Positions 2,510 through 21,473 are shown, counted from the stretch's first letter. The stretch: DNA of 36,529 nucleotides from a virus (IMGVR_UViG_3300009507_003420:1-36529), one strand, 5' to 3'. Translations and numbers: made by a program. Notes: a model not told the origin generated them from the sequence alone.

Positions 2510-3715
2510 ATGGCATTACAAGTTAGAAGAGGTACCAATGCAGAAAGATTAGGTATCACACCTGCAGAAGGTGAATTAATATTCACAACAGACACTAAAC
2601 AATTATACGTTGGTGACGGAACTACAGCAGGTGGAATAACATCTATTGCTGGTACTATTGACTCACTTTTAGCTGATTCTACTCCACAACTAGGCGGCAC
2701 ACTAGACTTAAACAACCACGACATTACCGGTACAGGTAATATTAACATTATAGGTACTATACAAGCATCAGGAAATATTAACCTAGGTGACGGTGTTGGC
2801 AGTGATGTAATTAATATAGGTGGTGTAATGTCAGGTGATTTAGTTCCTAATGCTGATGCAACACACGATTTAGGTTCTACTACAGCGTATTGGAAAGAAG
2901 CATTTATTTCTCAATTAACAGTTGATAGCCAGATCACAGCTGAAAGAGTACAAGCAGATATTATTGCAGATGATAGCACTGTTGTATTCAATGCTGCAAC
3001 AGGACAAATTGCTGCTGCACAACTTGTAGGAACATTTACAGGAAATGTAGTAGGAGACACCAGAGGAAATCACATAGGTACAGTTGACGGTGATCTTACA
3101 GGTAGTGTTTTTGCTGATGATAGTACACCATTAATTGATGCTGTTACCAGTTCAATTGTTGGTAATATTGACACATTAAGATATGTAGGAGTAACAACAA
3201 GTGGAAACAATGCAGGCTTAGTTGTAACTGGTATAGCAGGTGATTCTTCAACAGGACCTAAATTAGAGATTAAATCTTCAAACGGTACAACGGCAAATCC
3301 AACAGTAAGTGTTGGTGGTACCACAGGTGACGGACTTGCAGACATACATGGTCTAGGCTTTGACGGAGCAGCATATAAACTTGCAGCTTTAATGAGAGTT
3401 GCAGTTGATCTAGATACTACTGTAGCGCCTAATGTTGTTCCAGGTAGAATAAATTTTGTTACAGCAGACAGTACAGGAAATTTAGCAAACCTACTTACAT
3501 TTAACAGTAGAGGTAAGTTAGGTATTGGATTACCTAGACCAGATGAAAAACTTCATGTCAATGGTAATGCTAAAGTAGCTGGCTTTGTACAGTTTGGTTC
3601 TCTTACAACCGTAGAACGCGATGACCTTACAGCAGTTAACGGTATGGTTATCTACAACGAAACTGATGAAAAGTTCCAAGGTTACGAAAACGGTGCTTGG
3701 ACTAATTTAATTTAA
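2510..3715 (+). CDS. tail fibre / virion fibre protein with Mtd_N-like N-terminal domain
   Basis: N-terminus MALQVRRGTNAER...PAEGELIFTTDTKQLYVGDG (Mtd_N/hyaluronidase-N type), DSTPQLGG motif, ADDST repeats, Gly/Thr-rich beta repeats, GIG..P.EKLHVNG, and C-terminal GMVIYNET..KFQGYENGAW. Confidence 0.85.
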   Translation: MALQVRRGTNAERLGITPAEGELIFTTDTKQLYVGDGTTAGGITSIAGTIDSLLADSTPQLGGTLDLNNHDITGTGNINIIGTIQASGNINLGDGVGSDVINIGGVMSGDLVPNADATHDLGSTTAYWKEAFISQLTVDSQITAERVQADIIADDSTVVFNAATGQIAAAQLVGTFTGNVVGDTRGNHIGTVDGDLTGSVFADDSTPLIDAVTSSIVGNIDTLRYVGVTTSGNNAGLVVTGIAGDSSTGPKLEIKSSNGTTANPTVSVGGTTGDGLADIHGLGFDGAAYKLAALMRVAVDLDTTVAPNVVPGRINFVTADSTGNLANLLTFNSRGKLGIGLPRPDEKLHVNGNAKVAGFVQFGSLTTVERDDLTAVNGMVIYNETDEKFQGYENGAWTNLI

Positions 3716-4685
3716 ACTTAGTAATCATTATTTCATCAAGAGTACTACAAACTTCTTTATTACAGATAGTCCATTCTTCTTTAAATAGATCTATTTCTTT
3801 TTCAAATATGTTACCAATAATGCCTGTAGCAGCACAAGTTCCATACTTTACATTTCCGTTAGCTTCTATTAATATTTTCTTGTTTGTAATGCCGCACTTC
3901 CAGCCTTGAAATTTGTTAATCCTTTGTTGTAGAAAATCTATAGCATTTGTTTCAATTGTATCATTTATTGTAAAATTTAAATAAGATGGAGTTTTTTGTT
4001 CTAATGTTTCTATAAATTCTAGTTCTTGTTTAGTATAATAGTTTAAATCACCGTTATCTAATTTTTGACGATACCCTTTTAATTCTCTACTAGATTCAAA
4101 TGTTTGATTAGTAATTTTTGTTGTTTTATTATATAGAGGATTTACCGGAATCTTATATATAGGTGTATCTTTTAGTTTCTTTTCAAGTTCAAATATCTTA
4201 TCGAATAAACCTTGTGCTAACATTGCCCTCACTTCAACGTTACCGTCATTGTCTTTAATCATGTTAACAAAGTCTACTATTTTATCTACATCAGCACTTT
4301 CAGGATGAAAACTAATTTTAATATTAATGTTTTTAAATGATTCTTTACTATAGTCGTATACCCGCAAAGGTAAACTACCGTTAGTAAAGATAGCAACACG
4401 CATTTTATTTTCGCCCATCCAATTAAGCCATTTATGTACATCTTTGACTAAGAATGGCTCGCCGCCTGTTATATAAACTAATACAGACTTGTTAGTAGGA
4501 ACAGCATCTCTAATTTTTTTTGATGCCGCAATTAACCTATTAACATCTGGTAATTTTGCTTTATTAATTGCAAGATGATTGCTCGGATCGCAATAACTAC
4601 AGTCGTAGTTACACATATCCGTAGGACGCCAATGTACAATATAGTCTTCGTACCAATCAGTTTTTTCTATTTTTGATATATTCAT
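3702..4685 (-). CDS. radical SAM enzyme with C-terminal SPASM/Twitch-like domain
   Basis: CNYDCSYC (CxxxCxxC), TGGEP, TNGS and ISFHPE motifs; C-terminal GWKC...GNVKYGTC...IGNIF...ICNKEVC. Confidence 0.9.
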   Translation of the reverse strand: MNISKIEKTDWYEDYIVHWRPTDMCNYDCSYCDPSNHLAINKAKLPDVNRLIAASKKIRDAVPTNKSVLVYITGGEPFLVKDVHKWLNWMGENKMRVAIFTNGSLPLRVYDYSKESFKNINIKISFHPESADVDKIVDFVNMIKDNDGNVEVRAMLAQGLFDKIFELEKKLKDTPIYKIPVNPLYNKTTKITNQTFESSRELKGYRQKLDNGDLNYYTKQELEFIETLEQKTPSYLNFTINDTIETNAIDFLQQRINKFQGWKCGITNKKILIEANGNVKYGTCAATGIIGNIFEKEIDLFKEEWTICNKEVCSTLDEIMITKFKLN

Positions 4686-5826
4686 TTAACAACTCCTTTC
4701 TGTTAATTTTTCCTTGGCCTTTGCGGTTAATAGCATCTACTTGATAAAACTTTATAGGAATTTTGTATTCAACTAGTTTAGACTGTAGGATATCCATGTC
4801 TACTTCGCCAACTACTTCAGCATAAACTTTGTCATAACCAAATACAACAGCATCACTAGCACCTGACTCAAGTAGTGCCTTTTCTACTTCATAAGGCATA
4901 ATTTTCCAGCCTCCTGCTATAATTGTTTCCTTTTTACGTCCTGTAACAAATAAGAATCCGTCTTTATCTATATGTCCAAGATCACCTGTAGCAAAACCAT
5001 TAGCAATAATTTCATTATCTTCTGCTATGGTTACGTCCATTTTATCTAGTACAAAACCTACACTTCCATGTTTTTGAGGATAGTGCATGATACTAATTGT
5101 GCCTAGTTCATTTACACCATAACTGTCTGTTGTGATACAATTAAAGTAACTTGTAGCACGTTCTTTTAATTCTCTATACATAGGCGCACCTACTGTTCTT
5201 ATATGGCGTATACTCATATTGTCGTAAGGCACAGTAGGATTCATCATTGCCTTGAGTACGTTTGGACTGCCTACTACAAATGTAGGATTAACACTAGGCC
5301 ATGTTTTCCATGGTTGCTCTAATACATGGTATGTACATCCGTATTTGTAACATATACAAAACGTTTGAAAACCTATACATACCCAATAGGGTATAAAATT
5401 TACGGTGCTGTCATTTGTACCAAGATTAGCATGTATTTGTATATTATTGTCTAGTCCATCTATGTTATATTGTTTTTCTGTAATAGGTACTATACGTGGT
5501 TCATCAGTGCTTCCACTGCTACAAATACCCACTACTTCATCTGTAGAACATTGATTATATCTTGGTTTAGGTAAATCATCTACCCATATATCAATGTCGT
5601 AAAAATTCTTTTCAAAGTCTTTAAACTGGTTATCTACAATGACTGGGCTACAAACTTTCATAGCACCAAATATTTTAAAAATATTAGTCCAGTCACTGTA
5701 AACACCAATACGGCAAGTTTTATCATAACCTGCTTGTCTAAGCTGTTCAGCGTATGTTTCTGCTATACTATCAAATTCGTCTTTGGTATATGCTTTACCA
5801 TTTTCAAATTTAAGTATGTATGACAT
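4657..5826 (-). CDS. AMP-binding (ANL superfamily) acyl-CoA synthetase-like enzyme, compact 389 aa
   Basis: A3-like SSGSTDEPR, A5 YGVNE, A7 ATGDLG, A8 GRKKETIIAGGWKI and A10 GKINRKEL. Confidence 0.85.
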   Translation of the reverse strand: MSYILKFENGKAYTKDEFDSIAETYAEQLRQAGYDKTCRIGVYSDWTNIFKIFGAMKVCSPVIVDNQFKDFEKNFYDIDIWVDDLPKPRYNQCSTDEVVGICSSGSTDEPRIVPITEKQYNIDGLDNNIQIHANLGTNDSTVNFIPYWVCIGFQTFCICYKYGCTYHVLEQPWKTWPSVNPTFVVGSPNVLKAMMNPTVPYDNMSIRHIRTVGAPMYRELKERATSYFNCITTDSYGVNELGTISIMHYPQKHGSVGFVLDKMDVTIAEDNEIIANGFATGDLGHIDKDGFLFVTGRKKETIIAGGWKIMPYEVEKALLESGASDAVVFGYDKVYAEVVGEVDMDILQSKLVEYKIPIKFYQVDAINRKGQGKINRKELLNEYIKNRKN

Positions 5827-6493
5827 TCTTGATATCCTCGTAAATCAAGTTAAGATAGTGCCACCTCATATCTTCGTTAGACTTTAATATAGTCCATTGA
5901 TTTGTATGACCGTAAGTTACAGCCATGTACATATGATTAGGTTTTACACTTCTAAATTCTTCTTCACTCATACACTTACCTATAATGTTGTACCTAACCA
6001 TGTCAAATGATCTTTCTAAGTCAGTGTTCATAAAGGCATGATGAGTGTTAGGCAAGTAGTAGTGTGATAAAGGTGGCTTGACGCATTGTTCTTTAAAAGC
6101 ATTGTATTTTTCTTGGCCTTTGTCTTCCATACCCGAAATGACCCAAGCATTACTGTAATCTTTGTTTATCATATCTTCTGTAAAACCTAGCACACCTGGA
6201 TAGAACAGATAGTTCTTAACAAACTTTTCATGATTAATTATACCAAAAAATCCACCTAAACTAAAACCTATATGGTAGATAGGTTCATCGGGTATTTCTA
6301 TTGTTTCAAACATTTCAACAAAAGACATTTCGTAGTCGTCCGGAAAATCTTCGTGCCAACGTAACATTTTAATATCATATTGTGTAAAGTAATCGTTTAC
6401 AATTACATCAAAACCTTTGTCGCGAAAGAAGTCAGCAGTAAAACGTTCTGCTGACCCTACTCCACCACTACCGTGTGTGATCATTATTTTCAT
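5810..6493 (-). CDS. dienelactone-hydrolase-like alpha/beta hydrolase (Ser nucleophile)
   Basis: HGSGG oxyanion loop, GFSLGG nucleophile elbow, FYPG, SGMED (Asp) and THHAF (His). Confidence 0.8.
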   Translation of the reverse strand: MKIMITHGSGGVGSAERFTADFFRDKGFDVIVNDYFTQYDIKMLRWHEDFPDDYEMSFVEMFETIEIPDEPIYHIGFSLGGFFGIINHEKFVKNYLFYPGVLGFTEDMINKDYSNAWVISGMEDKGQEKYNAFKEQCVKPPLSHYYLPNTHHAFMNTDLERSFDMVRYNIIGKCMSEEEFRSVKPNHMYMAVTYGHTNQWTILKSNEDMRWHYLNLIYEDIKNVIHT

Positions 6494-7533
6494 TTAGATG
6501 CTAGTTCCATTTTAAATACACTTGCAAGACCTAAAGCGTTTGTATTAAAGTATACAAGGTCTTCTAAAGCTGAAACAGTAACAAAACTCATAAGTGTATC
6601 TCTATGAGCATTGCCTTCTGCGCCAATCTTCCATTCGTATTTACCAACCTTCTTTTCTATGATTGCTCTGCTTTGGGCATTTAAAGACATTTCAGTCAAT
6701 GCAGCTTGTAGTTTCTCAGCATTAGGATTACCTTTGTTTACCCATAGTGCTTTTTGCATACCATCTCTAAACGATTTTACTAGTTTGTAAGCATCATAAA
6801 ATTCACCGCTTGGTGCAACACCCCAACGCTGTTCATATAACTTTTCAAACTGAAAGCCAGGGTAGTTTGGATCATCAGCATGTGTTCCATCTGCTTGTAG
6901 TATACCATGATGGAACCAAATTTCTGCATTGTCGTCTGGTGCTACATGCTTTTTATATGCCGCTGGATTTTCTCTTGTACCAGTAAGTTCTCCACGTCTA
7001 AATGCAAGACGTCTTTCACTACCACTCATACCTTTTACCCATTGTACATTCTTTTTAAAGCATTTTACATACGCATCCATAGACATTTGTGGTCCACAGA
7101 TAAGCATAGTCATTGCGTATGCTTCAGGTGTCTGACCGCTACCTGCTGCAAAACTTGGACTATTCATATCTTCGCCAATGCGTCTGCCCGCAATAATATT
7201 TAAGTTCATAAGTCCTACTGATTCATATTCACCGTAGTTATAGTCAACTTCTTCTTGTAAGAATGCAACGCCATTACCGCCATGTGAAACCATAATAACT
7301 TTGTCGTCATTTCTCATTTCGTTGTGCCAAGCGTTAAAACCTGGAATATCTCTTGCACCTGGAATATGTGTTATATTCACTGGCTCATCTAAATATTTAG
7401 ATAGTTCTTTAGCAACAATTTCTGCCCATACACTTGTTCCACCACCTGGTTTTTGTGGTACAATCATTGTATAATCTGCGTGGGCAACTGTTGCAAACAT
7501 TGCTACCACAATTCCTAATAACATTTTACGCAT
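6490..7533 (-). CDS. tctC: tripartite tricarboxylate transporter substrate-binding protein (TctC/Bug-like)
   Basis: Signal peptide MRKMLLGIVVAMFATVAHA, IVPQKPGGGTSVWA and HIPGA motifs, SGSERRLAFRRGELTG; directly downstream of tctA. Confidence 0.8.
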   Translation of the reverse strand: MRKMLLGIVVAMFATVAHADYTMIVPQKPGGGTSVWAEIVAKELSKYLDEPVNITHIPGARDIPGFNAWHNEMRNDDKVIMVSHGGNGVAFLQEEVDYNYGEYESVGLMNLNIIAGRRIGEDMNSPSFAAGSGQTPEAYAMTMLICGPQMSMDAYVKCFKKNVQWVKGMSGSERRLAFRRGELTGTRENPAAYKKHVAPDDNAEIWFHHGILQADGTHADDPNYPGFQFEKLYEQRWGVAPSGEFYDAYKLVKSFRDGMQKALWVNKGNPNAEKLQAALTEMSLNAQSRAIIEKKVGKYEWKIGAEGNAHRDTLMSFVTVSALEDLVYFNTNALGLASVFKMELASK

Positions 7534-8959
7534 AATTTATTTTCCTTTTTGATGTTAGTCCCCAAACTAGCGTAACAATAATTGAAACACATAATCCGAG
7601 AAAAATGTATCTATCCATCAGTTTATCAACTGTGTACAATCCTGCCATTTGTACCGTTAACGCTTCTATTCTATCTGCTAGAATAAAAGCAAATAGCAGT
7701 GCAGGTCTGCTAAATTTGTATTTCTTTGCTAGTAGTCCTACGATACTACATACTACTAGGATAAAGTAATCTTCCCAACCGCCTGTGTATTGTACACATG
7801 CAAGTACAATAAAGCCCAACAACACTGGGAAGTAGTATTTGTAGGGTATTTGTGCAATTCGTGCTATTAATGGTGTCGTAAACAAGCATATAGCGCCTAC
7901 AAGCACTGTTGCGAGCATAAACCCGTATAACATACTATCGAAGAATTTAGCGTCATTTGCAAGTTCTAAGGTACCTAATTCAAAGTCCAAATATGCAAAT
8001 AATCCAATTACAATAGCCGCAAAACTTGCTCCTGGTATTCCAAATAATACTGTAGGAATCATTGATGTTGCCTTTTGTGCATTGTTGGCTCCTTCAGGTC
8101 CTATCACTCCTTTGATATTACCGTTACCAAATTTTTCTTTAGGATGACTTGCAACTGTAGAACTATAAGCCATCCAGTCTGCAACTGTACCTCCTAGTCC
8201 TGGTAACAATCCTATAAAGGCTCCAATGAATCCGCCTCGCATAGCGTCCCACTTATTATGCCATACAGCCATTATACCTTGTTTAGTTTGTACACCATTT
8301 GCAAGTACTACCATGCTTGTGTTTGTTCTTTGCTTCAATCCATCAAGTAGCTCTGGTATTGCAAATAGACCTGCAACCAAAGGCATAAGTTGTACACCGT
8401 CTCCAAGATACTCCCAGCCACCGGTCCATCTATCTGCATTGGTACTAGGATCAACCCCAATCAATCCTACAAACAATCCTATACATAGTGCTAACAAACT
8501 TCTAAACCAAAATTTGTTTGTTACAAAAGTTACACATACCATGGCTAACATTGTGAATGCCCATAGTTCAGGCACACCAAAAATCATTATTAGTTGTGTG
8601 TAATATGGTAACAGAAAGAATGTAAGCGAGCCCCATAATAATCCATTAAGTGTGCTTGTAGTAACAGCAGCACTAATTGTATATGTTGCTTGTCCTTGCA
8701 ATGCTAACGGAAATCCGTCTATCATTGTAGCAGCCGCACTATTAGCACCAGGTATTCCTAGTAACACACCTGTGTAAGTATCTCCTGTTGTACTAGCAGC
8801 AACAACTGCCATTACAAATATCACTGCTAGATACGGATCAGGAAACAGTGTAATAAATGAAAACACAAATATTAATCCTGTAGTAGCGCCTGCACCTGGC
8901 AGGATTCCAATTATTAGTCCGTATATTGTTCCTGCAAGTAATGCCAATACTGAAGCCAT
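7526..8959 (-). CDS. tctA: tripartite tricarboxylate transporter large permease TctA
   Basis: Polytopic membrane protein with two repeats of the TctA signatures: GLIIGILPGAGATTG / GAFIGLLPGLGGTVA, LLGIPGANSAAATMIDGFPLA, and GPEGANNA...MIPTVLFGIPG. Confidence 0.92.
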   Translation of the reverse strand: MASVLALLAGTIYGLIIGILPGAGATTGLIFVFSFITLFPDPYLAVIFVMAVVAASTTGDTYTGVLLGIPGANSAAATMIDGFPLALQGQATYTISAAVTTSTLNGLLWGSLTFFLLPYYTQLIMIFGVPELWAFTMLAMVCVTFVTNKFWFRSLLALCIGLFVGLIGVDPSTNADRWTGGWEYLGDGVQLMPLVAGLFAIPELLDGLKQRTNTSMVVLANGVQTKQGIMAVWHNKWDAMRGGFIGAFIGLLPGLGGTVADWMAYSSTVASHPKEKFGNGNIKGVIGPEGANNAQKATSMIPTVLFGIPGASFAAIVIGLFAYLDFELGTLELANDAKFFDSMLYGFMLATVLVGAICLFTTPLIARIAQIPYKYYFPVLLGFIVLACVQYTGGWEDYFILVVCSIVGLLAKKYKFSRPALLFAFILADRIEALTVQMAGLYTVDKLMDRYIFLGLCVSIIVTLVWGLTSKRKINYA

Positions 8960-8972
8960 GCTTTTTTCCTTC

Positions 8973-8990
8973 TATATAATTAATTATATA
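8973..8990. promoter_or_regulatory. perfect 18-bp palindrome TATATAATTAATTATATA between divergent genes; probable bidirectional promoter/operator
   Basis: Self-complementary; gives TATAATTA on both strands (one mismatch to TATAAATA); flanked by TTCCT/AGGAA. Confidence 0.55.
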
Positions 8991-9047
8991 AGGAAGATAC
9001 TTTTTTGAAGAAAAGTGGAATTTTTTTAATAGAAAGTGAAAAAAATT

Positions 9048-9773
9048 ATGAATTCACGAATTTTTTCGTTAGTTATGCAAAATTTAGAACAAGCGTTTAG
9101 CTTGCCTAAATACAGCGACTTGCAATTAGATAAGCATAGTATTATTGACGATATGCCATTTACACCTGTACGTAAAGAAAAGTTCTGTCAAAGTTTAATG
9201 CATGAATTAGATATTGAACATTTAGATTTGACTGGCACTGTAGAACAATTTGTACAATCATTAGATACATTTTATATGAAACGGTTCTTTGGAGAAATTT
9301 GGAAACCTAATACAGATGACCATACCTATAGTGGTTGGAGCATTGTTGATAGAATAAATGAGCGTGATCCAAAAAATGTTTTAGACTTTGGTTGTGGTTA
9401 TAATCAATTTAAACCACGTATAAAGAATCTTACAGGAATAGATCCTTTTAACGAAAATGCTGATTACATGGTAGACATATTAGACTTTAATGTAGATGAA
9501 AAGTATGACCATATGATTGTGTTTGGTAGTTTAAACTTTGGTGATGAAAAGGATATACGTACACGCTTTAAAAAGTTACATTCGTTACTAGACGTAGGTG
9601 GAAGGATGTATTTTAGAGTCAATCCAGGAATACTTTGGCCCAAAGGACCTTACGTAGATATATTTCCATGGAGTTTTGAATTTGCGTATGCACTTGCAAA
9701 AGAATATAACTGTAAGTTAGAGCAATTCAAAAAAGATAGAAAACGTTTCTATTTTGAAATACTAAAGATGTGA
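9048..9773 (+). CDS. class I SAM-dependent methyltransferase with N-terminal ACP-like helical domain
   Basis: Motif I VLDFGCGYN, GIDP, YDHMIVFGSLNF and LLDVGGRMYFR. The N-terminal ~75 aa follow acyl-carrier-protein spacing. Alternative GTG start at 9036. Confidence 0.8.
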   Translation: MNSRIFSLVMQNLEQAFSLPKYSDLQLDKHSIIDDMPFTPVRKEKFCQSLMHELDIEHLDLTGTVEQFVQSLDTFYMKRFFGEIWKPNTDDHTYSGWSIVDRINERDPKNVLDFGCGYNQFKPRIKNLTGIDPFNENADYMVDILDFNVDEKYDHMIVFGSLNFGDEKDIRTRFKKLHSLLDVGGRMYFRVNPGILWPKGPYVDIFPWSFEFAYALAKEYNCKLEQFKKDRKRFYFEILKM

Positions 9774-12544: not shown

Positions 12545-12577
12545 TAGCCAGTAACACATATACAGTAAGTAATGGCT

Positions 12578-12585: not shown

Positions 12586-12592
12586 TTACATA

Positions 12593-13441: not shown

Positions 13442-13788
13442 AAATACAACCTAAATGTTTAGCGTTTGGTACTAGAGACAACAAAGGAGCAGCATATACT
13501 TCTGATGGTTTTATGCTGCCGTGTTGCTGGATGGATGATCCTCCTGTATATAGATATATTGTAGAAGCCGGGTTAAAAGATGAAGAATTATTACTTTCTA
13601 ATAACGAAAGTTTAGATGATATCTTTACATCAGACCAGTGGGAAAACTTTTTTCAAACACTACTTAATAAACCCGATTGTGCTTCTTATATGTGCAAAAA
13701 GAAATGCGGTGTTGATATAGACAAGGACAAAGTAAGAGAAGAAGAACGTAAAGAAGTAAGGGAGCAAGCAAATGGCGCGGATTACTGA
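13438..13788 (+). CDS. stand-alone SPASM/Twitch Fe-S cluster domain protein
   Basis: PKC...AYTSDGFMLPCCW...SLDDIFTSDQW...CASYMCKKKC. Confidence 0.75.
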   Translation: MKIQPKCLAFGTRDNKGAAYTSDGFMLPCCWMDDPPVYRYIVEAGLKDEELLLSNNESLDDIFTSDQWENFFQTLLNKPDCASYMCKKKCGVDIDKDKVREEERKEVREQANGADY

Positions 13789-14521
13789 TGAATACGTAAT
13801 TAAACAAAAACTATGTCGTCCTAACATTGATGCTTCTCATAGATGTATTTTTAGATGTCCACAGTGTATTAGACAAAAAACATCTAGTCAAGATCAAATT
13901 AAAAGATCTTTTGATTTAGAAGCAGAACAGTTTAAAAAAATACTTGACTACTATGATTATGGTTTAACGTTTTGTGGACAGATCTCAGATCCAATATATC
14001 ATCCTAAGTTTTTAGAACTACTTAAAATGTGCGACGGACAAGGTAAAGCTGTACGTATTGCTACAGTAGGCAGTGGTAAGAGCGATGCTTGGTGGGATGA
14101 AGCGTATAGTTATGGTGTAGGCGAAAACGCTTGGTACTTTGGTGTAGATGGTATTGACGAAAAGAGCGAATTGTATCGTGTTGGGTCAAAGTTTACAGAT
14201 GTATGGAAGCGTATGAAGCAAGGTAGAGATCAAGGTCATGTTATTGTTTGGCAATATATTATTTTCGGTTACAACGAACACGAAGTTAACGAAGCAATAG
14301 AAATAGCAAAGCAAGAAGATTTTGCCCTACTACTTATTAATACTAATAGAGGATTTAATCCGGATAGCCCATTGTTAAGAAAGAATGTAGATTTTAAACT
14401 TACATCTCCTGATAAAAAACATACGCAAGAACGTGTAAAAAAAGAATACTGGGGACATAAAACTACAGCGTTAGAACAGTGGCACAAATTACCTCGACGA
14501 AAGTTAGAAGGAAAAGCATAA
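13772..14521 (+). CDS. radical SAM enzyme (core only)
   Basis: CIFRCPQC, FCGQISDP, FGVDG...YRVG and WQYIIFGYNEHEV; no C-terminal Cys cluster; has its own AGGGAG RBS. Confidence 0.88.
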   Translation: MARITDEYVIKQKLCRPNIDASHRCIFRCPQCIRQKTSSQDQIKRSFDLEAEQFKKILDYYDYGLTFCGQISDPIYHPKFLELLKMCDGQGKAVRIATVGSGKSDAWWDEAYSYGVGENAWYFGVDGIDEKSELYRVGSKFTDVWKRMKQGRDQGHVIVWQYIIFGYNEHEVNEAIEIAKQEDFALLLINTNRGFNPDSPLLRKNVDFKLTSPDKKHTQERVKKEYWGHKTTALEQWHKLPRRKLEGKA

Positions 14522-15607
14522 ATGATAACATATGATGCGTGGGACAGAGAGTACCAAGAAAATAAAGAAGCATATTTAAAAATCTTTGATAATTTTATGA
14601 GTCAAATGAACTACGAAAACAATGAAGAGTTTGAAAGTAAATTTGCACAACGTATAGGACGTAAGCATTGTATTAGTGTTTCTAGTGCTACAGATGCACT
14701 ACACTTTGCACTACGAGCCCATGGTATCGGTCCAGGAGACGAAGTACTAGTAACAGATTTTAGTTGGATCTCTAGTGCTAGTTGTGTAGACATGGTAGGC
14801 GCTACTCCTGTTTTCTGTGACATAGATATAGACAGTTATCATATGTCATTAGATAGTATAAAACGCATGTACAGTGACAACGTAAAAGCAATTATATATC
14901 CGCATCTATTTGGAAATATGTCAGACACTTCAGAGATACAAAAATTTTGTAGAGAAAGAAATATATTGTTTATTGAAGATGCAGCACAATCACTAGGAAG
15001 TAGTTTACATGGAATAAAAGCAGGTACCATAGGTGATTGCTCAGTATACAGTTTTAATTCTAACAAAGTAATCGCTGGAATTAATGGCGGCGGTGTCGTA
15101 CTAACAGACGACGAAGATATTGCAAAACGTGTTAAAATGATTAGACGTCATGGTAAAGATAAAGATTTTAGTATGCTAGGTTATAACAGTCGTATGTACG
15201 TTTTCAATGCACAAATTATAAATTTACGTTTACGTCATGCCGAAAAAAATCAAGAACGAAGACAACAAATTGCAAAACATTACAATGAAGCATTTGCTGA
15301 TTTAGATGTTTATACACAATCTATGTCAAATGGCCTTAATCACAACTACCATAAGTATGTTGTAAGATTCAAAGATAAAGATACTCGCAAGCGTGTAAAA
15401 ACTGCTTTAAACGCTAGTATACACTATGAAGCACCTTTGAGTGCAAATAGTATGTATGACGGCTTAGAGTGCAGGAGAGACGCTTGTACAGCGTCTAAGA
15501 CGGCATCTAACACTGTTTTATCTTTACCTATACACGCTTATCTTACAGATGAAGAAGTAAATGAAATTATAGATAAAGTGAAATCAGCATATGAACATAA
15601 CGTATAA
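14522..15607 (+). CDS. DegT/DnrJ/EryC1/StrS-family PLP sugar aminotransferase
   Basis: SSATDALH, GIGPGDEV, GATPVFCDID, HLFG, IEDAAQSLG, SFNSNKVI (PLP Lys), GYNSRM and LSLPIH. Confidence 0.95.
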   Translation: MITYDAWDREYQENKEAYLKIFDNFMSQMNYENNEEFESKFAQRIGRKHCISVSSATDALHFALRAHGIGPGDEVLVTDFSWISSASCVDMVGATPVFCDIDIDSYHMSLDSIKRMYSDNVKAIIYPHLFGNMSDTSEIQKFCRERNILFIEDAAQSLGSSLHGIKAGTIGDCSVYSFNSNKVIAGINGGGVVLTDDEDIAKRVKMIRRHGKDKDFSMLGYNSRMYVFNAQIINLRLRHAEKNQERRQQIAKHYNEAFADLDVYTQSMSNGLNHNYHKYVVRFKDKDTRKRVKTALNASIHYEAPLSANSMYDGLECRRDACTASKTASNTVLSLPIHAYLTDEEVNEIIDKVKSAYEHNV

Positions 15608-16322
15608 TAATCAGACAATAGATTTTACTATGCCTAATAATCATGAAATAGTGATTTCATTGTCAGGCGGAGCAGATTCTGCGGCTTTGTTTTATCTAGC
15701 ATGTAAACACTATCCAGAAAAACTATATATTCCCTTCACAGGATTAGATGAAAATGCGCCTAAAGATGCAGAAGCAGCATTGCTTATCACAAAGTTTATG
15801 AAAAAAAAATTTAAAAGATTACAAATAAGAAATCTTAGTGTATTTAATTTTAACGATAGAGAATACAAATACACAACTTATAAACAAGTAAAAAAAGTTA
15901 GAAAAAGAAGATTTCCGGAAATGAATATGAGACAAGTTTCTAAAATGGTTCAATTAAATAAAATAGGATTGGATATGTATAACAATTTTCCTTTTTCTAT
16001 AGAGATAGACGGAATGACAGCTAACCCTTCAATAGAAGACATGCAAAATAATAATTTTGGTCATTTTGGCGAAGATCGTAGAAATTTAAATGAAGAAATA
16101 CTGACATTTAGAAATAACAGATGGCAACCTTTTGTAAACGTAAATAAAAAATTTATTGCAGATATCTATAAGAAAAATAAATTACTAAATAGTTTGTTCC
16201 CAATTACAAGATCATGCACCGGAACAGCTATAGAGACAAATAATTTTACTAAAGAGTGTCATAAATGTTTTTGGTGTTTTGAAAGAAAATGGGCATTTAA
16301 TTTAGACTGGAGGGGATACTAA
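15591..16322 (+). CDS. QueC-like PP-loop ATPase (adenine-nucleotide alpha hydrolase) with C-terminal Zn motif
   Basis: SLSGGADSA PP-loop; PF...NK..I; TRSC...CHKCFWCFER. Confidence 0.8.
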   Translation: MNITYNNQTIDFTMPNNHEIVISLSGGADSAALFYLACKHYPEKLYIPFTGLDENAPKDAEAALLITKFMKKKFKRLQIRNLSVFNFNDREYKYTTYKQVKKVRKRRFPEMNMRQVSKMVQLNKIGLDMYNNFPFSIEIDGMTANPSIEDMQNNNFGHFGEDRRNLNEEILTFRNNRWQPFVNVNKKFIADIYKKNKLLNSLFPITRSCTGTAIETNNFTKECHKCFWCFERKWAFNLDWRGY

Positions 16323-16326
16323 AGTT

Positions 16327-17115
16327 ATGATAGAAGAAGTATTCAGTAAAAGAAGACAAATTAGAGCGGCTTGGGATCAAAAAAAGATTCCATCTAAAGA
16401 AACAATATACGATTTATTAAAGCGAACATTAAATATTGCACCATCTAAACAGAATTTATTTCCCTTTAAGATACATGCGTTTGGACCAAAAGACATAGAA
16501 GAAAGAGAAATAATAGGACAAATTTGTTCTTTATGGGAAACTGGATCAGTAAATCATTGGGATGACAAATCTAAGAACGGCGATTTTTATAGTGCGGCAG
16601 GCGATTTAAATATTAAGGATTGGGTGCTAGACGATGAAGGGAACGACATGCGTAATGCTCCTTGGGTGCTTGTGTTTGAACAACGCCTTGCTGAAGAAAA
16701 TAATTTTGTTCGAGAACATCACAAGTTACATCAAGACGGTCATAGATTTACTCAAACTGATCCTAAAAGGTTTAGAGAACTCTGTAATACAAAACTAACC
16801 TGTATTGAAATAGGTATGTATTTGCAAACATTAGCTGGATTATGTTTAGAAAACGATTTAAATATTTCATATATAAGAACCTTTCCTGAATGGAAATGGC
16901 TCGGAGTAAAAGGTGAATATAAGAAAGAATCAAATAAAGCTGGTCGACTAGACTGGAGTTCTCTGCCTCAAATCACAGAATCTCCTCTGATGATTGCACA
17001 GATTGGCTATGTTGCAAATGTTGACGATTATTTCAAAAGTAATAGTGTTAATCCTAAGGACATTCATTGGGAAAACAAACCAAGTATTGATGAAATAGTG
17101 AGGTTTAACACATAA
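16327..17115 (+). CDS. nitroreductase-family flavoprotein
   Basis: KRRQIR...APSKQNLFPF, NAPWVLVF, EIGMYLQTL..LC.E..L, IGY and KPSIDEIV. Confidence 0.8.
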   Translation: MIEEVFSKRRQIRAAWDQKKIPSKETIYDLLKRTLNIAPSKQNLFPFKIHAFGPKDIEEREIIGQICSLWETGSVNHWDDKSKNGDFYSAAGDLNIKDWVLDDEGNDMRNAPWVLVFEQRLAEENNFVREHHKLHQDGHRFTQTDPKRFRELCNTKLTCIEIGMYLQTLAGLCLENDLNISYIRTFPEWKWLGVKGEYKKESNKAGRLDWSSLPQITESPLMIAQIGYVANVDDYFKSNSVNPKDIHWENKPSIDEIVRFNT

Positions 17116-17855
17116 TGGACATAAAAGATCAAATAAAAAATGCTTCTACAGTAACTAATAAAGCACAAAGAAATTATGATCTAACTAAATTTATTCCACA
17201 AGAGGATTTAGATACGCTTATCTATGCTGCTGCTAATTCTCCTAGTAAACAAAATGAAACACATTATTCGTTACATGTGTATACTGATCAAACTATTATA
17301 AAACAAATATACAGTCATACAAAAAAATTTACATTAGCTAGAACTCAAGAAGACAAAGACCAAAGTTTTAGTGTAGAAAACGATGTCTTTATGCAGCATG
17401 ATGACAATTCAGTAACTAATTCGCAAATATATGCCAATGCGTTATTTGTATATGTTAAAGACGCAAGCACCATTAACAAATACAATGTGCAACATCATGC
17501 AGCAAAACTAAATCCTAACAGTTCTGCGGCAAAGAAATACGAAGAGCAAATAGCATATTCAATAGGTATATCGGTTGGAGAACTTATATTATCAGCGGGA
17601 TTACTTGGATACAACACAGGTATTTGTTCAGCATTAGACACAAGATCAATACGTGATATACTAGGAATAAAACAAAATCCAAAATTGCTTGTAGGTGTAG
17701 GGTATCCTAACAGCCAGCTTGAAAGGACACAACACTCAGAATTATTAAATAAAGATATACCTGAAAGATTTAGAACCGGTGAGCTAGACGAGCATATGAA
17801 ATTTCCAAGTTTTGACAAACACACAAAGGTAATTATTAATGGCATTGACACTTAA
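17115..17855 (+). CDS. nitroreductase-family flavoprotein (second, tandem)
   Basis: KAQRNY...AAANSPSKQN, IGISVGELILSAGLLGYNTGIC and LLVGVGYP. Confidence 0.82.
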   Translation: MDIKDQIKNASTVTNKAQRNYDLTKFIPQEDLDTLIYAAANSPSKQNETHYSLHVYTDQTIIKQIYSHTKKFTLARTQEDKDQSFSVENDVFMQHDDNSVTNSQIYANALFVYVKDASTINKYNVQHHAAKLNPNSSAAKKYEEQIAYSIGISVGELILSAGLLGYNTGICSALDTRSIRDILGIKQNPKLLVGVGYPNSQLERTQHSELLNKDIPERFRTGELDEHMKFPSFDKHTKVIINGIDT

Positions 17856-18678
17856 ACAGCTAAAAGGCAGTGAATATAGAACTGTAGACTTTTATCTATC
17901 GAAATCTTGTAATAAGAGCTGTCATTACTGTACAGCATGGACATTAGAAATGCGCTATTTACATGTTGATATGGATCTAGTGCGTACTATCCTAAAAGGA
18001 CTTGCACCGTATAAAACAAGAATCTGCTTACTTGGCGGCGAGCCCGGATTGATTAAAAATCTCGACGAAGTTATAGCAGAAATAAAAAAGCATCCTAATC
18101 TTATTCCTCAAGTACTATCCAATTCTTTAGTTCGTAAGTTTTATCCCCATGTTTTAGAAGATCCAGATATTATATACATTGAACACTTGGTACTAGATTT
18201 CTATGAGGATCGAATTGAAAAGCTAGGTAACTATCCTTTCCTACCAAAAAACGATATGAATAATTATAATCTTATTATAGAAACTCCTAACTACTTCAAA
18301 TACAGAGAAAATTTTGATCTATCAGAAATTGATCACGAAAATACAGAATTCAAAGAATATAATTCAAGATCACCTGACTTCTTTAATGATCACAAACTTG
18401 TACAGGCTCCGGAAATTGAAAGACGTATATGTGCAAAGTTTCCACAAGTGCCTGTGTTTGATTTTGAAATACAAAAGATCAGACACTGTAGCAGAAAAGC
18501 AATAAACGGATCAAGAGAGTTCGATATTACAATAGAAAATATTGAAAAAATGATGAACTATGATTTATTTGAATTTGAAAAATATTGCACAGTATGTATG
18601 GATATAATACCTAAACGTCCTGAAGCTAGAAGAAACGAAATACTTAACATAATCGAGAGTGAAAAACAATTAGGATGA
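17839..18678 (+). CDS. radical SAM enzyme
   Basis: CNKSCHYC, LLGGEPGL and LSNS; C-terminal C...HC...YCTVC cluster. Confidence 0.88.
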   Translation: MALTLKQLKGSEYRTVDFYLSKSCNKSCHYCTAWTLEMRYLHVDMDLVRTILKGLAPYKTRICLLGGEPGLIKNLDEVIAEIKKHPNLIPQVLSNSLVRKFYPHVLEDPDIIYIEHLVLDFYEDRIEKLGNYPFLPKNDMNNYNLIIETPNYFKYRENFDLSEIDHENTEFKEYNSRSPDFFNDHKLVQAPEIERRICAKFPQVPVFDFEIQKIRHCSRKAINGSREFDITIENIEKMMNYDLFEFEKYCTVCMDIIPKRPEARRNEILNIIESEKQLG

Positions 18679-20147
18679 ACATATATTCAGTTGCTGTGAA
18701 TATTCACGACCATAATACATACGACGGAATGTTTCATAACCAAGTAGAGCGACACAATAGGGTAAAACACAATCTTAACCCTAACAATTCGCATGACGAA
18801 GAACCAAGCAGACAGTTTTTTTGCGAACATTTCTTATCAAATTATCTTGATAAAGATGAGTTGTTTGCATTTACAGTAAGTAATCTAGGCCAACAATTTG
18901 TGTATGACATGCTAGAAGAAAGTCTTCCTGATATGGAATTTTTAAAATTTAAGCCAAAAGGCCTCTGGGACTATTATAAAACTGATACCTATTACTATAT
19001 TGACCATCATCAAAGTCATGCCGCTTATGCATACTTAACCTCAGGATATGAAAAATCAGACATACTAGCAATAGATGGAAGAGGCTGGCATTATAATTGT
19101 ATTTTTATTGATAAGTTTGATAACATTATAGATCTAAGTGAACGACTTCCAATAGGCGGTTTGTGGAATAGGCTTTCGCAAGACATGGGATTTGGTTATT
19201 TAGGTGCAGGAAAGACAATGGGGTTAGCAGGTTTTGGAAAATATAATGTTGAAATAGCTGATATGCTACACATGTATATGCAAAATCCTAATCACAAACT
19301 TCCAAGCGGATACCAAAAAGTTTTAGATAGAGTACCAAAAGAAGATGTTGCTTATACCTTACAAAAATTTACAGAACAATTAATAGAAGAATATGTATTT
19401 CCGTTAAAAACTTGTGATAATTTATGTATAGCAGGCGGTGTTGCATACAACGGTTACGTAAATGAGCAATGCACACATCATTGGTCAAATGTTCATGTAC
19501 CTCCTGCAGCTGGTGATGAAGGACAAGCATTAGGCACATATATGCATGCTGATTATACACAGAATGGTAACGTACACATTCCTGATGTATATGCTGGATT
19601 AGAATATGAATACAAAGGCAAAGAAAAAGTAAATTTGAAAGAAGTTGCACAAGCTATAGCTGATGGGAAAATAGTAGGATGGTTTCAAGGAAAAAGCGAA
19701 AGCGGTAACCGAGCATTAGGTAATAGAAGTATACTAGCTGATCCTAGAAATCTTAAAATTAAAGATATTATAAATTCTAAAATTAAACTACGTGAAGACT
19801 TTAGACCATTTGCTCCTAGTGTCCTTGAAGAACATTACAAACAATATTTTGATACTAATCAACCAAGTCCGTATATGAGTAGAATAATGCCTGTAATAAG
19901 TGATCAAATACCAGGCGTAACACATGTCGACGGAACAGCCCGTATACAAACTGTAACTAGAGACTTTAATCAAATTTACTATGATTTAATACATGAATTT
20001 TATAAAATTACTGGTATTCCTATGCTATTGAATACTAGTTTTAATTGTCAAGAACCTATTGTTGAAACACCAGAAGATGCACTTGCTACATTTAACAAAT
20101 GCGGACTTGATATTTTAGTAATAAATGAATATATTGTAAAGAAATAA
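18675..20147 (+). CDS. carbamoyltransferase, NodU/CmcH/TobZ family
   Basis: HHQSHAA, IDGRG, GKTMGLA, AGGVAYN, PAAGDEGQALG, ESGNRALGNRSILADP, KLREDFRPFAP, HVDGTARIQTV and LNTSFN. Confidence 0.95.
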   Translation: MNIYSVAVNIHDHNTYDGMFHNQVERHNRVKHNLNPNNSHDEEPSRQFFCEHFLSNYLDKDELFAFTVSNLGQQFVYDMLEESLPDMEFLKFKPKGLWDYYKTDTYYYIDHHQSHAAYAYLTSGYEKSDILAIDGRGWHYNCIFIDKFDNIIDLSERLPIGGLWNRLSQDMGFGYLGAGKTMGLAGFGKYNVEIADMLHMYMQNPNHKLPSGYQKVLDRVPKEDVAYTLQKFTEQLIEEYVFPLKTCDNLCIAGGVAYNGYVNEQCTHHWSNVHVPPAAGDEGQALGTYMHADYTQNGNVHIPDVYAGLEYEYKGKEKVNLKEVAQAIADGKIVGWFQGKSESGNRALGNRSILADPRNLKIKDIINSKIKLREDFRPFAPSVLEEHYKQYFDTNQPSPYMSRIMPVISDQIPGVTHVDGTARIQTVTRDFNQIYYDLIHEFYKITGIPMLLNTSFNCQEPIVETPEDALATFNKCGLDILVINEYIVKK

Positions 20148-20150: not shown

Positions 20151-20864
20151 ATGTTAGACAGAGAAAACATAAACTTACTGAAAAATATACTAGGTTTACA
20201 TAACAAAAATCTAGATACAGAATTCTTGTACAAAGTTCTCACTGTGATAAAAGAAAAACCAGAATTAGAAAGAGATTTGTTTGATTCTTTTAGTAGTAAT
20301 CAATTTGCATCTAAGTCAGCATTATTAGGTGTTATAGATAATTTAAATATATTAGATAAAAAATCAAATGTAGCTATTTGGGGAAGCTGGTATGGAAGTA
20401 TATTGATACCCATGCTTGCAGAAAAAGTTAACAAGATTATATGTATAGATTTAGATAACAATGCTTTACAAATTGCAAAAAACAGATTGTTTGATAATTA
20501 TAAAAATGTAGATTACATATGTGACGATATATTTGCAAGTTGTAGAAAACAATATCGTGAAACAAATTTAATTATAAACACAAGTTGTGAACATATGAAA
20601 CCTATGAATGAATGGCCTTGGTTTGGCCCAGGTGCATTAAAGGAAGATAATATTTCAGGAAAAGATCCTAAACTATCTAGTAATTGTTATTTTGCATTCC
20701 AATCAAATAATATGTTTGATATAGAAGGACACGTTAACTGTGTTAATAGTTTAGAAGAGTTTAAAGATCAAATGCCCGAACGTGCAGAAATACTTTTTGA
20801 AGAAGAAGTAGAAGATACTAGAGGAACACGTTATATGCTAGTTGGTAAACTTAATCCCCTTTAG
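20151..20864 (+). CDS. class I SAM-dependent methyltransferase-like protein
   Basis: VAIWGSWYGSIL (motif I variant), CIDLD, ICDDIF, IINTSCEHM, FQSNN and RYMLVG. Confidence 0.7.
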   Translation: MLDRENINLLKNILGLHNKNLDTEFLYKVLTVIKEKPELERDLFDSFSSNQFASKSALLGVIDNLNILDKKSNVAIWGSWYGSILIPMLAEKVNKIICIDLDNNALQIAKNRLFDNYKNVDYICDDIFASCRKQYRETNLIINTSCEHMKPMNEWPWFGPGALKEDNISGKDPKLSSNCYFAFQSNNMFDIEGHVNCVNSLEEFKDQMPERAEILFEEEVEDTRGTRYMLVGKLNPL

Positions 20865-21473
20865 GATATCTCTAGCTATTAATTTTTGCGATTCTGGGCC
20901 TGGATGGTTACCATCAGCTGCTTTATCAACATAATGCAAAGACTGATTAATTAAGTCTACTTTATGCCATGTTGGATATTTATAATCTGTAAATATAGAG
21001 TTTTCCTCAGTCCTCATTCCCACAATAAAATTAAAAACATGTGGATGTTCTTGTAAATTATAGTTTGCTAAATTTATAGCCTCCAAAGATTCAAGAAAAC
21101 TATTATACGGATTATGAACCCACTTATAATAATTGTTAGATGTTTTAGAAAAATCTGTAGGTCGTATGTGTTTTGTCGTTTCTAGGTCTTTTAAAAATAC
21201 TGTTGATCTGTCAAATTCAGTCCATAATATTACTACTATGTCTTTTTTTGATATGTCAGTATTTAATATTTGATTTGCTATATATCTGTTAGAAGCTCCT
21301 GGGAATCCAACATTAACAACTTCTATACCTAAAATTTTTCCTAATAGTGCAGGCCAGGCATACTGACTAGGATTATTTGCTTTAGTTTCTCCATATTCGT
21401 TATGGTAATTTAGACAGTCTACTTGTCCTTCACCATAGGTATGACTGCACCCAAAAGCAAATAATCTACTCAT
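20838..21473 (-). CDS. SGNH/GDSL hydrolase-like protein
   Basis: FGCSHTYG (block I), G.PGASN (block II) and DGNHPG (block V). Confidence 0.8.
   Translation of the reverse strand: MSRLFAFGCSHTYGEGQVDCLNYHNEYGETKANNPSQYAWPALLGKILGIEVVNVGFPGASNRYIANQILNTDISKKDIVVILWTEFDRSTVFLKDLETTKHIRPTDFSKTSNNYYKWVHNPYNSFLESLEAINLANYNLQEHPHVFNFIVGMRTEENSIFTDYKYPTWHKVDLINQSLHYVDKAADGNHPGPESQKLIARDILKGIKFTN

What the first reader, a model, noticed from the sequence alone, without database searches (positions are those of the whole stretch)
3702..21473. Phage-encoded 'import-activate-transfer-tailor' biosynthetic island between fibre and tail genes
Seen: about 20 tightly overlapping enzyme and transporter genes lie between a fibre gene and a GT/tail module. 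They include a TctA/TctC carboxylate importer, two adenylate-forming enzymes, a Ser hydrolase, an ACP-like/methyltransferase fusion, a GNAT-like protein and a 2OG oxygenase. They also include a GT-B-like protein, a DegT aminotransferase, a QueC-like enzyme, two nitroreductases, three radical SAMs, a carbamoyltransferase, a methyltransferase and an SGNH hydrolase. Known: TTT systems import carboxylates, ANL enzymes adenylate carboxylates, DegT enzymes make amino-sugars, and NodU/CmcH enzymes O-carbamoylate sugars. Inference: the phage imports an external acid, activates it and attaches it to an amino-sugar glycan on the virion or host surface, or makes a small molecule. I know of no characterised phage pathway of this composition.
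Basis: partly seen in the sequence, partly recalled or inferred. Interest (0 to 1): 0.85.

Follow-up and report, generated by a model that had tools for sequence, protein, structure and literature searches.

The report
Mosaic late tailoring island, jumbo phage
A large uncultured ocean phage carries 22 real enzyme and transporter genes beside its tail-fibre genes, but they are three separately exchanged gene cassettes rather than one pathway; they are likely switched on late in infection, and the sugar-tailoring cassette likely decorates the virus particle, which could be tested because a cultured SAR11 phage carries the same cassette.

Summary
The 22 genes at 3702-21473 are real, tightly packed and phage-borne, not a chimera. 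They are not one import-activate-transfer-tailor pathway but three cassettes that assort separately in a hypervariable island of Rak2/Atu_ph07-like marine jumbo phages. A2 is methyltransferase-TctA-TctC (no TctB) with optional hydrolase, ANL ligase and radical SAM. A1 is GNAT-like, DUF6356, a C-domain-less ANL and a sulfotransferase-like gene. B is GT-B-like, DegT, radical SAM, carbamoyltransferase and methyltransferase. None of 38 further B-carrying contigs has this TctA clade. The 'ACP' lacks its serine. The island's constant part, a glycosyltransferase core, lies just outside the given coordinates (21466-28398). Cassette starts carry the motif found before structural genes, so expression is likely late. 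Best reading (0.45): B plus the core build an amino-, carbamoyl- and methyl-decorated glycan on virion proteins. A weaker import-and-activate link (TctAC to ANL389) survives. The island type is published in outline (host recognition cluster), and this scan has noted these cassettes on other DNA. Useful here: cultured pelagiphage Mosig carries cassette B, so it can be tested.

The parts
2510..3715 (+). Mtd_N fibre gene, left anchor of the island; chimeric: N-part follows the backbone, C-terminal tip follows cassette A2
   Evidence: Pfam Mtd_N; aa 1-225 81-89% to backbone kin, aa 240-401 73-75% to TctAC+ANL389 carriers
3702..4685 (-). A2 optional: radical SAM rSAM1
   Evidence: Pfam 7e-10; CxxxCxxC at 25; in 7 of 37 TctA loci
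4657..5826 (-). A2 optional: minimal ANL (adenylate-forming) enzyme ANL389, altered P-loop, C-terminal Lys motif present
   Evidence: beside tctAC in 17 of 21 loci
5810..6493 (-). A2 optional: likely alpha/beta serine hydrolase
   Evidence: GxSxG at 76; 1 of 6 relatives has a weak Abhydrolase hit; 7 of 37 TctA loci
6490..7533 (-). A2: TctC/Bug-fold secreted binding protein with an altered ligand cleft
7526..8959 (-). A2: TctA permease (no TctB)
   Evidence: Pfam 1e-92; 37 viral loci
8960..9047 (.). Divergent tctA / methyltransferase gap with a palindromic AT element; in four relatives it reads as a two-way late motif
9048..9773 (+). A2: class I small-molecule-type methyltransferase with a serine-less helical N-domain (not a functional ACP)
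   Evidence: family in 35 of 37 TctA loci
9762..10490 (-).
   Evidence: Atlas nearest named clusters are sulfotransferases, score 0.92-0.94; no PDB support
10477..11160 (-). A1: ANL core without C-terminal subdomain (ANL227)
11126..11332 (-). A1: DUF6356 small hydrophobic protein
   Evidence: in 39 of 80 ANL227 loci
11378..11899 (-). A1: GNAT-like protein (label weak)
   Evidence: 2 of 13 relatives have GNAT/FeeM hits at E 0.02-0.03; no PDB hit; in 72 of 80 ANL227 loci
11896..12516 (-). 2OG-Fe(II) oxygenase (Asp_Arg_Hydrox-like), head of the leftward unit
   Evidence: 46% to the gene in the same position in Mosig
12517..12592 (.). A|B junction with two divergent late-promoter-like motifs (minus 12537-12544, plus 12578-12585)
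   Evidence: DNA identity breakpoint
12593..13441 (+). B core: GT-B-like glycosyltransferase (lead)
   Evidence: Atlas nearest named cluster GT1, 0.93; no PDB hit; in 60 of 80 rSAM3 loci
13438..14521 (+). B optional: split SPASM-like ORF (13438-13788) plus radical SAM rSAM2 (13772-14521)
   Evidence: in 34 and 37 of 80 loci
14522..15607 (+). B core: DegT-family sugar aminotransferase
   Evidence: Pfam 3e-89; nearest structures include QdtB, perosamine synthase, WbpE; 71 of 80 loci
15591..17855 (+). B optional: QueC-like PP-loop enzyme (15591-16322), nitroreductase-like NR1 (16327-17115) and NR2 (17115-17855)
   Evidence: 22, 20 and 24 of 80 loci at orthologue level
17839..18678 (+). B core: radical SAM rSAM3 with extra C-terminal cysteines
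   Evidence: 137 viral relatives
18675..20147 (+). B core: NodU/CmcH/TobZ-family carbamoyltransferase
   Evidence: 75 of 80 loci
20151..20864 (+). B core: methyltransferase MT237
   Evidence: 52 of 80 loci at orthologue level
20838..21473 (-). SGNH hydrolase, last gene of the leftward unit that runs from the GT core
21466..28398 (-). Conserved island core outside the finding: GT-A-like GT220 and GT296, two twitch radical SAMs, two GT8/glycogenin-like GTs, two hypothetical genes
   Evidence: NF033640 above cut-off; glycogenin E 1e-7 for GT281/283; GT220/296 have no PDB hit; core in 22 of 25 backbone-chosen islands and in phage RsoM2USA
28460..36529 (-). Tail fibre / baseplate genes, right anchor

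Best explanation
The region is the variable part of a fibre-to-tail island in a marine jumbo phage, built from three separately exchanged cassettes that are likely expressed late, and cassette B together with the adjacent glycosyltransferase core likely builds an amino-, carbamoyl- and methyl-decorated glycan that is likely attached to virion proteins. SHOWN: gene content, block-wise assortment, DNA breakpoints at cassette borders, the structural-gene upstream motif at cassette starts, and no membrane segments in the enzymes. INFERRED for B, by analogy (recalled) with BtrN/BtrR and WbpB/WbpE chemistry: a radical SAM enzyme oxidises a sugar hydroxyl, DegT aminates the ketone, the TobZ-like enzyme carbamoylates, MT237 methylates, and the GT-B-like enzyme adds the sugar to a chain started by the core GT-A/GT8 enzymes in the cytoplasm during assembly. 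INFERRED for A2: TctC and TctA import a small charged solute without TctB, the methyltransferase acts on it, and in one lineage ANL389 adenylates it. A1 is a separate group-transfer unit of unknown substrate. A1 and A2 are optional add-ons that B does not need.
For: Assortment: rSAM3 keeps CarbT in 75, DegT in 71, GT-B in 60, GT220 in 59 and MT237 in 52 of 80 loci. This TctA clade is in 0 of 38 further B contigs, of which 18 reach the far island end. ANL227 keeps the GNAT-like gene in 72 of 80 loci but the TctAC clade in only 14. DNA mosaic: 1-3140 is 88-91% to backbone kin, 3209-12527 is 74-83% to phages whose backbone is 67-68%, and 12590-20857 is 73-79% to B-only phages. The TctA and backbone trees disagree. 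Late motif [AT]TAAATA upstream: fibre 28 of 28, tail502 13 of 13, baseplate gene 9 of 9, GT-B when first 16 of 25, 2OG when first 8 of 15, rSAM3 when first 6 of 6, CarbT 1 of 73, internal DegT 3 of 75, background 3%. ATAAATA is the predicted late promoter of Rak2-like phage CBB (PMC5259590, passages). Sugar chemistry; relatives insert epimerases, an HldE-like kinase/nucleotidyltransferase and UDP-glucose dehydrogenase. Only TctA, TctC (signal), DUF6356 and one NR2 stretch are hydrophobic. Virion glycans in mycobacteriophages are cited in PMC12619734 (passage).
Against: No product, substrate or acceptor is shown. The GT-B, GT220 and GT296 folds were not confirmed by PDB searches. rSAM3 matches viperin and YydG better than BtrN, all weakly. 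Three backbone loci have no island at this site (L087, L113, L122), so the decoration is dispensable or sits elsewhere. The late motif is not enriched over the window as a whole (5 found, 8.55 expected); only its position argues. The published view favours host-surface modification (PMC7029224, PMC7824862). B is enriched beside this TctA clade (7 of 13 against 1 of 25), and a TctA of any kind lies within 10 kb of ANL227 in 27 of 80 loci, so the cassettes may not be fully independent. Many loci are near-duplicates and most contigs are fragments.
Confidence: 0.45

Rival explanations
1. The cassettes remodel the host surface (LPS, O-chain, capsule) to block superinfection or grazing, as proposed for pelagimyophage and cyanophage clusters.
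For: Proposed in PMC7029224 (passages) and PMC7824862 (section 3.4.10). GT8-like enzymes; heptose- and NDP-sugar genes in relatives.
Against: Cassette starts carry the structural-gene (late) motif, which is late for superinfection exclusion (inference). No flippase, ligase or membrane GT is in the window, although host machinery could be used.
Confidence: 0.2
2. One or more cassettes make a diffusible small molecule (aminoglycoside- or aminocyclitol-like from B; acylated, halogenated or sulfated from A1/A2).
For: B resembles aminoglycoside tailoring sets: TobZ/GdmN hits, inositol and sugar transaminase hits. Relatives insert tryptophan halogenase, class IV aminotransferase and TauD genes into A1. 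A metabolite role is suggested for cyanophage clusters in PMC7824862.
Against: No scaffold synthase or exporter in the window. The island sits between fibre genes in two unrelated phage groups.
Confidence: 0.17
3. One reading: all 22 genes form one pathway in which an imported acid is adenylated, carried and attached to an amino-sugar glycan.
For: A and B co-occur in 7 of 13 extended TctA-clade islands against B in 1 of 25 backbone-chosen islands. ANL389 depends on TctAC (17 of 21). Both halves start from one divergent late gap.
Against: B lacks this TctA clade in 38 of 38 further contigs and in Mosig. TctAC lacks B in 6 of 13 and lacks ANL389 in 22 of 37 loci, some of them short. The carrier has no serine and ANL227 has no C-domain. 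B is inverted or split relative to A in relatives.
Confidence: 0.1
4. B hypermodifies phage DNA (carbamoyl or glycosyl on hydroxymethylcytosine).
For: Phage carbamoyltransferases that act on 5hmC exist (PMC8670742, passages).
Against: In that paper the DNA-acting enzymes co-occur with thymidylate-synthase homologues, while those in unmodified contigs are flanked by GT group 1 genes, as here. There is no thymidylate-synthase-family gene in 5 of 5 B carriers (30-91% complete) or in complete G001 (which has ThyX), and no C5 methylase in 5 of 5. The two thymidylate synthases found in other relatives keep the Asn of dUMP-type enzymes.
Confidence: 0.05

Closest known systems
Host recognition cluster (HRC) of pelagimyophages and cyanomyophages (Zaragoza-Solas et al. 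2020, PMC7029224; passages read)
   Same: Large non-syntenic island among tail-fibre genes with glycosyltransferases (GT8 prominent) and radical SAM cassettes that are added or lost; cassette B is present in such a region of cultured pelagiphage Mosig.
   Different: Here the backbone is a Rak2/Atu_ph07-like jumbo phage, with other anchors (Mtd fibre, tail302) and a fixed four-GT core. The passages read do not name the DegT/carbamoyltransferase operon, the TctAC cassette or late promoters.
Cyanophage sugar/amino-acid modification clusters with carbamoyltransferase, halogenase, 2OG oxygenases and methylases (Iyer et al. 2021, PMC7824862, section 3.4.10 read)
   Same: Same enzyme classes in polymorphic clusters; halogenases occur in relatives of this island.
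   Different: Cyanophage carbamoyltransferases are only 30-39% identical. No radical SAM/DegT/GT-B core or importer is described in that section.
Tripartite tricarboxylate transporters (TctABC, Bug proteins); tctA as a domain hit on SUP05 virus contigs (Roux et al. 2014, PMC4164917, passage read)
   Same: TctA permease and a Bug/TctC-fold binding protein.
   Different: No TctB; TctC is 11-17% identical to solved members, with invariant Arg-Asp where BugD has Gly-Gly-type residues. The clade is nearly confined to phages: 5 hits in GTDB, all MAG contigs.
Aminoglycoside and NDP-amino-sugar tailoring (TobZ, BtrN/BtrR, WbpE, QdtB)
   Same: Carbamoyltransferase, DegT aminotransferase, radical SAM, GT-B and methyltransferase in one operon.
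   Different: No aminocyclitol synthase; rSAM3 is only weakly like BtrN (E 0.016). The pathway roles of these enzymes are recalled.
Phage 5-hydroxymethylcytosine carbamoyltransferase (Yang et al. 2021, PMC8670742, passages read)
   Same: Same Pfam domains.
   Different: No dCMP-hydroxymethylase/thymidylate-synthase partner; GT neighbours, as in the unmodified contigs of that paper.

Membership tests
Tripartite tricarboxylate transporter | TctA permease | tested here: met
   Pfam PF01970 E 1e-92 over 5-422
Tripartite tricarboxylate transporter | TctC/Bug-fold secreted binding protein | tested here: met
   Model pLDDT 90.8; first 14 Foldseek rows are Bug/TctC proteins
Tripartite tricarboxylate transporter | TctB small subunit in the locus | tested here: not met
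   No TctB hit among 42 window ORFs; tctA and tctC overlap; the rest of the genome is not held
Tripartite tricarboxylate transporter | Carboxylate-binding pincer and carboxylate cargo | tested here: inconclusive
   First Gly loop kept, second loop changed to invariant Arg-Asp; cargo cannot be tested
Acyl/peptidyl carrier protein | Conserved serine for phosphopantetheine at the start of helix II | tested here: not met
   Thr-Pro invariant, no Ser, in 10 of 10
Acyl/peptidyl carrier protein | Four-helix ACP fold | tested here: inconclusive
   Helix pattern is ACP-like in the model; fold searches were filled by the methyltransferase domain; profile search found no ACP
ANL adenylate-forming enzymes (ANL389) | P-loop, YGxxE, TGD, GR hinge and C-terminal catalytic Lys | tested here: met
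   All present; P-loop altered (Arg for Lys)
ANL adenylate-forming enzymes (ANL227) | C-terminal subdomain with catalytic Lys | tested here: not met
   Ends at the hinge; 80 of 80 homologues 223-254 aa
NodU/CmcH carbamoyltransferase | Both Carbam_trans domains and metal-binding His/Asp motifs | tested here: met
DegT/DnrJ/EryC1/StrS aminotransferase | Full-length domain with PLP Asp and Lys | tested here: met
Phage 5hmC carbamoyltransferase system | Co-occurring dCMP hydroxymethylase (thymidylate synthase homologue with Asp177) | tested here: not met
   None in 5 of 5 B carriers or complete G001; the window's own genome is a fragment
Host recognition cluster of pelagimyophages | Non-syntenic island among tail-fibre genes with GTs and radical SAM cassettes | tested here: met
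Host recognition cluster of pelagimyophages | Lies between VrlC and gp14 in a T4-like SAR11 myovirus | tested here: not met
   Anchors are the Mtd fibre and tail302; backbone matches Atu_ph07/Rak2-like jumbo phages. It works like an HRC but is not one
Rak2-like / Atu_ph07-like jumbo phages | Shared baseplate-region gene and ATAAATA motif before structural genes | tested here: met
   93 phage records, best 54-58%; motif
Rak2-like / Atu_ph07-like jumbo phages | Terminase/capsid phylogeny | not tested
   These genes are not in the window
Virion-glycosylation systems | Glycan on purified virion proteins that depends on phage GTs | not testable with these tools
   Needs bench work

The most novel reading that the evidence does not exclude
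Marine jumbo phages chemically customise their own particles from a swappable toolkit: a radical-SAM-driven amino-sugar glycan (cassette B plus GT core) on the fibres, and in this lineage a TctB-less late importer that supplies an outside acid which ANL389 activates onto the fibre tip that travels with it.
Probability: 0.15. Interest if true: 0.85.

Novelty: new variant of a known kind. Interest (0 to 1): 0.45.

Why it matters
I found no paper on their chemistry in the searches run. Whether phage glycosyltransferase islands act on the host surface or on the virion is open. Resolving the island into cassettes, and finding cassette B intact in a cultured SAR11 phage, turns that into a direct experiment. 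The integrated 22-gene pathway that gave the finding its high first score does not hold, which lowers the interest.

Tried and rejected
Chimera with bacterial DNA: rejected (GC 29-39% throughout; junction bridged in an independent run; A next to B in other assemblies). Functional ACP: rejected. DNA modification: unsupported; the Tet_JBP search rang nowhere, controls included, so it is uninformative. ANL227 binding the GNAT-like protein in place of its missing C-domain: complex prediction gave no answer (score 0.00), which is no evidence either way. PDB profile searches gave nothing useful for the sulfotransferase-like ORF, GT-B, GT220/296 and GNAT. Expression: two metatranscriptome runs of one study hold near-identical contigs over parts of A and B, but contigs cannot show transcription and DNA may be present. 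Host: not determined; GTDB hits are MAG contigs with discordant labels. Cultured phages with this TctA clade: none, the 7 hits are 25-27% identical. Literature searches for the composition found no paper on this operon or on a phage TctA-TctC pair; subscription journals are mostly not held, and I opened no supplements, which may list these genes. The mycobacteriophage glycosylation paper itself was not held. PMC8504454, PMC5332604, PMC6359870 and PMC12801897 (passages) added no functional evidence. Of G001's 264 ORFs of 140-1300 aa, 146 were scanned with Pfam.


Full report
OBSERVATION. The stretch 3702-21473 holds 22 ORFs; 15 of 21 junctions overlap. TctC has no family hit, but an AlphaFold model (pLDDT 90.8) returns Bug/TctC binding proteins in its first 14 Foldseek rows. 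The GT-B label rests on an Atlas lead. The GNAT, hydrolase and NR1 labels rest on motifs and weak hits in relatives. Three ORFs were missed: a sulfotransferase-like gene (Atlas lead), DUF6356 and a SPASM-like ORF. Two labels need correcting. The ACP-like domain has no serine at the attachment position in 10 of 10 homologues. ANL227 lacks the C-terminal subdomain in 80 of 80.

ORIGIN. The baseplate-region gene at 34966-35580 matches 93 phage records, best Phosso and Atu_ph07 (54-58%), then Rak2-like phages. A complete relative with terminal repeats is 328 kb. Twenty public runs from 8 studies hold the stretch 6400-16300 or part of it, from marine or estuary metagenomes where labelled; 9 are flagged as possible sources. 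In a run not so flagged, one contig is identical across 10434-12664, which bridges the central junction. A 42.7-kb IMG/VR contig is 100% identical over the loci compared. It is phage DNA and not a chimera. The host is unknown.

THE REAL UNIT. I anchored on backbone gene h209 (best 80 of 475 loci) and extended 25 of them. In these, 22 show the glycosyltransferase core before the tail genes, 2 have an empty site and 1 is cut off. Complete islands span about 25-46 kb and differ almost wholly in content. The nearest backbone relatives (96% h209) carry other genes after the fibre. The constant part is GT220-twitch rSAM-GT296-h187-GT281-GT283-h116 (window 21466-28398), which the finding leaves out. 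GT281/283 match glycogenin (GT8, E 1e-7). The same core, in the same order and followed by an MT237-like gene, lies behind a tail gene in cultured phage RsoM2USA (26-44% identity).

THREE CASSETTES. Cassette B: among the best 80 of 137 rSAM3 loci, orthologues (>=40% identity, >=60% cover) of CarbT occur in 75, DegT 71, GT-B 60, GT220 59 and MT237 52; QueC, nitroreductases and the split rSAM2/SPASM are optional. I searched 38 longer B-carrying contigs, leaving out those already known to hold TctA. None has this TctA clade, one has a 24% TctA, and 18 reach the far end of the island; some are near-duplicates. Cultured pelagiphage Mosig carries B among tail-fibre genes (GT-B 54%, DegT 55%, rSAM3 54%, CarbT 59%, MT237 53%), divergent from a 2OG gene 46% identical to the window's, and gave no TctA hit. 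Cassette A2: of 37 TctA loci (window copy and near-duplicates included, some short), 35 have the methyltransferase family, 15 ANL389, 7 the hydrolase and 7 rSAM1. From the other side, ANL389 has tctAC beside it in 17 of 21 loci, 3 are cut off and 1 differs. In complete G001, tctAC lies about 120 kb from the island. Cassette A1: ANL227 keeps the GNAT-like gene in 72 of 80 loci, the sulfotransferase-like gene in 58, DUF6356 in 39, this TctAC clade in 14 and any TctA in 27.

RECENT EXCHANGE. DNA identity switches partner at about 3140-3209, inside the fibre gene, and at 12527-12590. The fibre's C-terminal 160 residues follow the TctAC+ANL389 carriers (73-75%) while its N-part follows the backbone (81-89%); simple linkage can explain this. 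Window TctA groups with L004 and L001 (96/99 and 100/100), while its backbone gene is nearest L026/L033 (85/90), whose TctA is in the other clade. Against full independence: 7 of 13 extended TctA-clade islands carry B, against 1 of 25 backbone-chosen islands. B's orientation and position relative to A differ among them, and the sample was drawn with the window's own TctA.

TIMING. The motif [AT]TAAATA precedes 28 of 28 fibre, 13 of 13 tail502 and 9 of 9 baseplate genes, 16 of 25 GT-B and 8 of 15 2OG genes that head a unit, 6 of 6 leading rSAM3 genes, but 1 of 73 CarbT and 3% of random 75-mers. In the window two copies face away from each other in the 76-bp A|B gap, and Mosig has a two-way copy in the same gap. 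The motif is not over-represented in the window overall (5 against 8.55 expected). PMC5259590 (passages) predicts ATAAATA as the late promoter of Rak2-like CBB. The tctA/methyltransferase gap has the exact motif in 4 of 11 divergent cases and a palindromic variant in the window's clade. The lead to look for late promoters came from earlier scan notes; the counts are mine.

MECHANISM. DegT is nearest to sugar and inositol transaminases and CarbT to GdmN/TobZ. The window has no NAD-dependent dehydrogenase, so a radical SAM enzyme is the likely source of the keto-sugar (inference; BtrN precedent recalled, match weak). The enzymes lack membrane segments, appear late and sit among fibre genes in two unrelated phage groups. 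I therefore commit to virion glycan decoration by B plus the core (0.45), ahead of host-surface remodelling (0.2), a small molecule (0.17), the integrated pathway (0.1) and DNA modification (0.05). DNA modification lacks its known partner: no thymidylate-synthase-family gene in 5 B carriers or in G001, and no C5 methylase in 5 of 5 (compare PMC8670742, passages). For A2, import of a small charged solute followed by methylation, and adenylation in one lineage, is plausible; the TctC cleft is altered and the cargo is unknown.

WHAT IS KNOWN. Variable GT/radical-SAM islands among fibre genes are described in pelagimyophages (PMC7029224, passages). Carbamoyltransferase/halogenase/2OG clusters are described in cyanophages (PMC7824862, section 3.4.10). 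tctA was noted as a domain hit on SUP05 virus contigs (PMC4164917, passage). The Mosig genome announcement (PMC7892664, part 1 of 2 read) does not discuss these genes and reports an impure culture. My searches found no paper on cassette B, A1 or the TctA-TctC pair; supplements were not opened. This scan has noted A2, A1 and B on other genomes, and nothing on this genome.

VERDICT. A real, widespread and chemically unexplored island; a new variant of a known kind; not the single pathway proposed. Interest 0.45.

Noticed in passing
window 2510-3715: The fibre gene is a chimera: N-part 81-89% to backbone kin, C-terminal tip 73-75% to phages carrying TctAC+ANL389.
   Followed up: partly
L161:821-1045 and 21 similar ORFs listed: A highly conserved 74-aa ORF sits just before the MT237-like/GT core in islands with long radical-SAM arrays; it is absent from the window and was not seen in the 80 B loci. 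Possible partner or substrate of the arrays.
   Followed up: partly
window 12592 / 20860 (run X16): One contig joins these places on opposite strands (36-letter side), as expected for a variant with cassette B inverted, the layout seen in L200.
   Followed up: no
window 10477-11899: C-domain-less ANL and GNAT-like gene co-occur in 47 of 47 full-length loci: a conserved unit of unknown chemistry.
   Followed up: partly
G001: L041:15717-17186, L042:13550-14617, L044:16488-16955, L039:17179-18279: The complete relative has a second, distant TctA, a Bmp binding protein, a Na/Pi cotransporter fragment, and a SAM synthetase inside its island.
   Followed up: no
L156:6521-9680: A MAG contig with bacterial-looking neighbours (GC 49%) carries this TctA-TctC clade plus a sulfotransferase-like gene; a possible cellular donor or recipient.
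   Followed up: no
L001:6561 region; L005:6561-7634; L012:277-1116: Relatives insert a tryptophan halogenase or a class IV aminotransferase between the GNAT-like gene and ANL227, where the window has neither.
   Followed up: no
L087, L113, L122: Empty sites: the fibre gene is followed directly by tail genes.
   Followed up: no
L151:23424-30162 (Atu_ph07): Atu_ph07 has a small radical SAM cluster downstream of the same baseplate-region genes.
   Followed up: no
L137:15818-18439; L143:15850-18465: In some relatives GT296, a spacer and GT220 are fused into one 870-aa protein.
   Followed up: no
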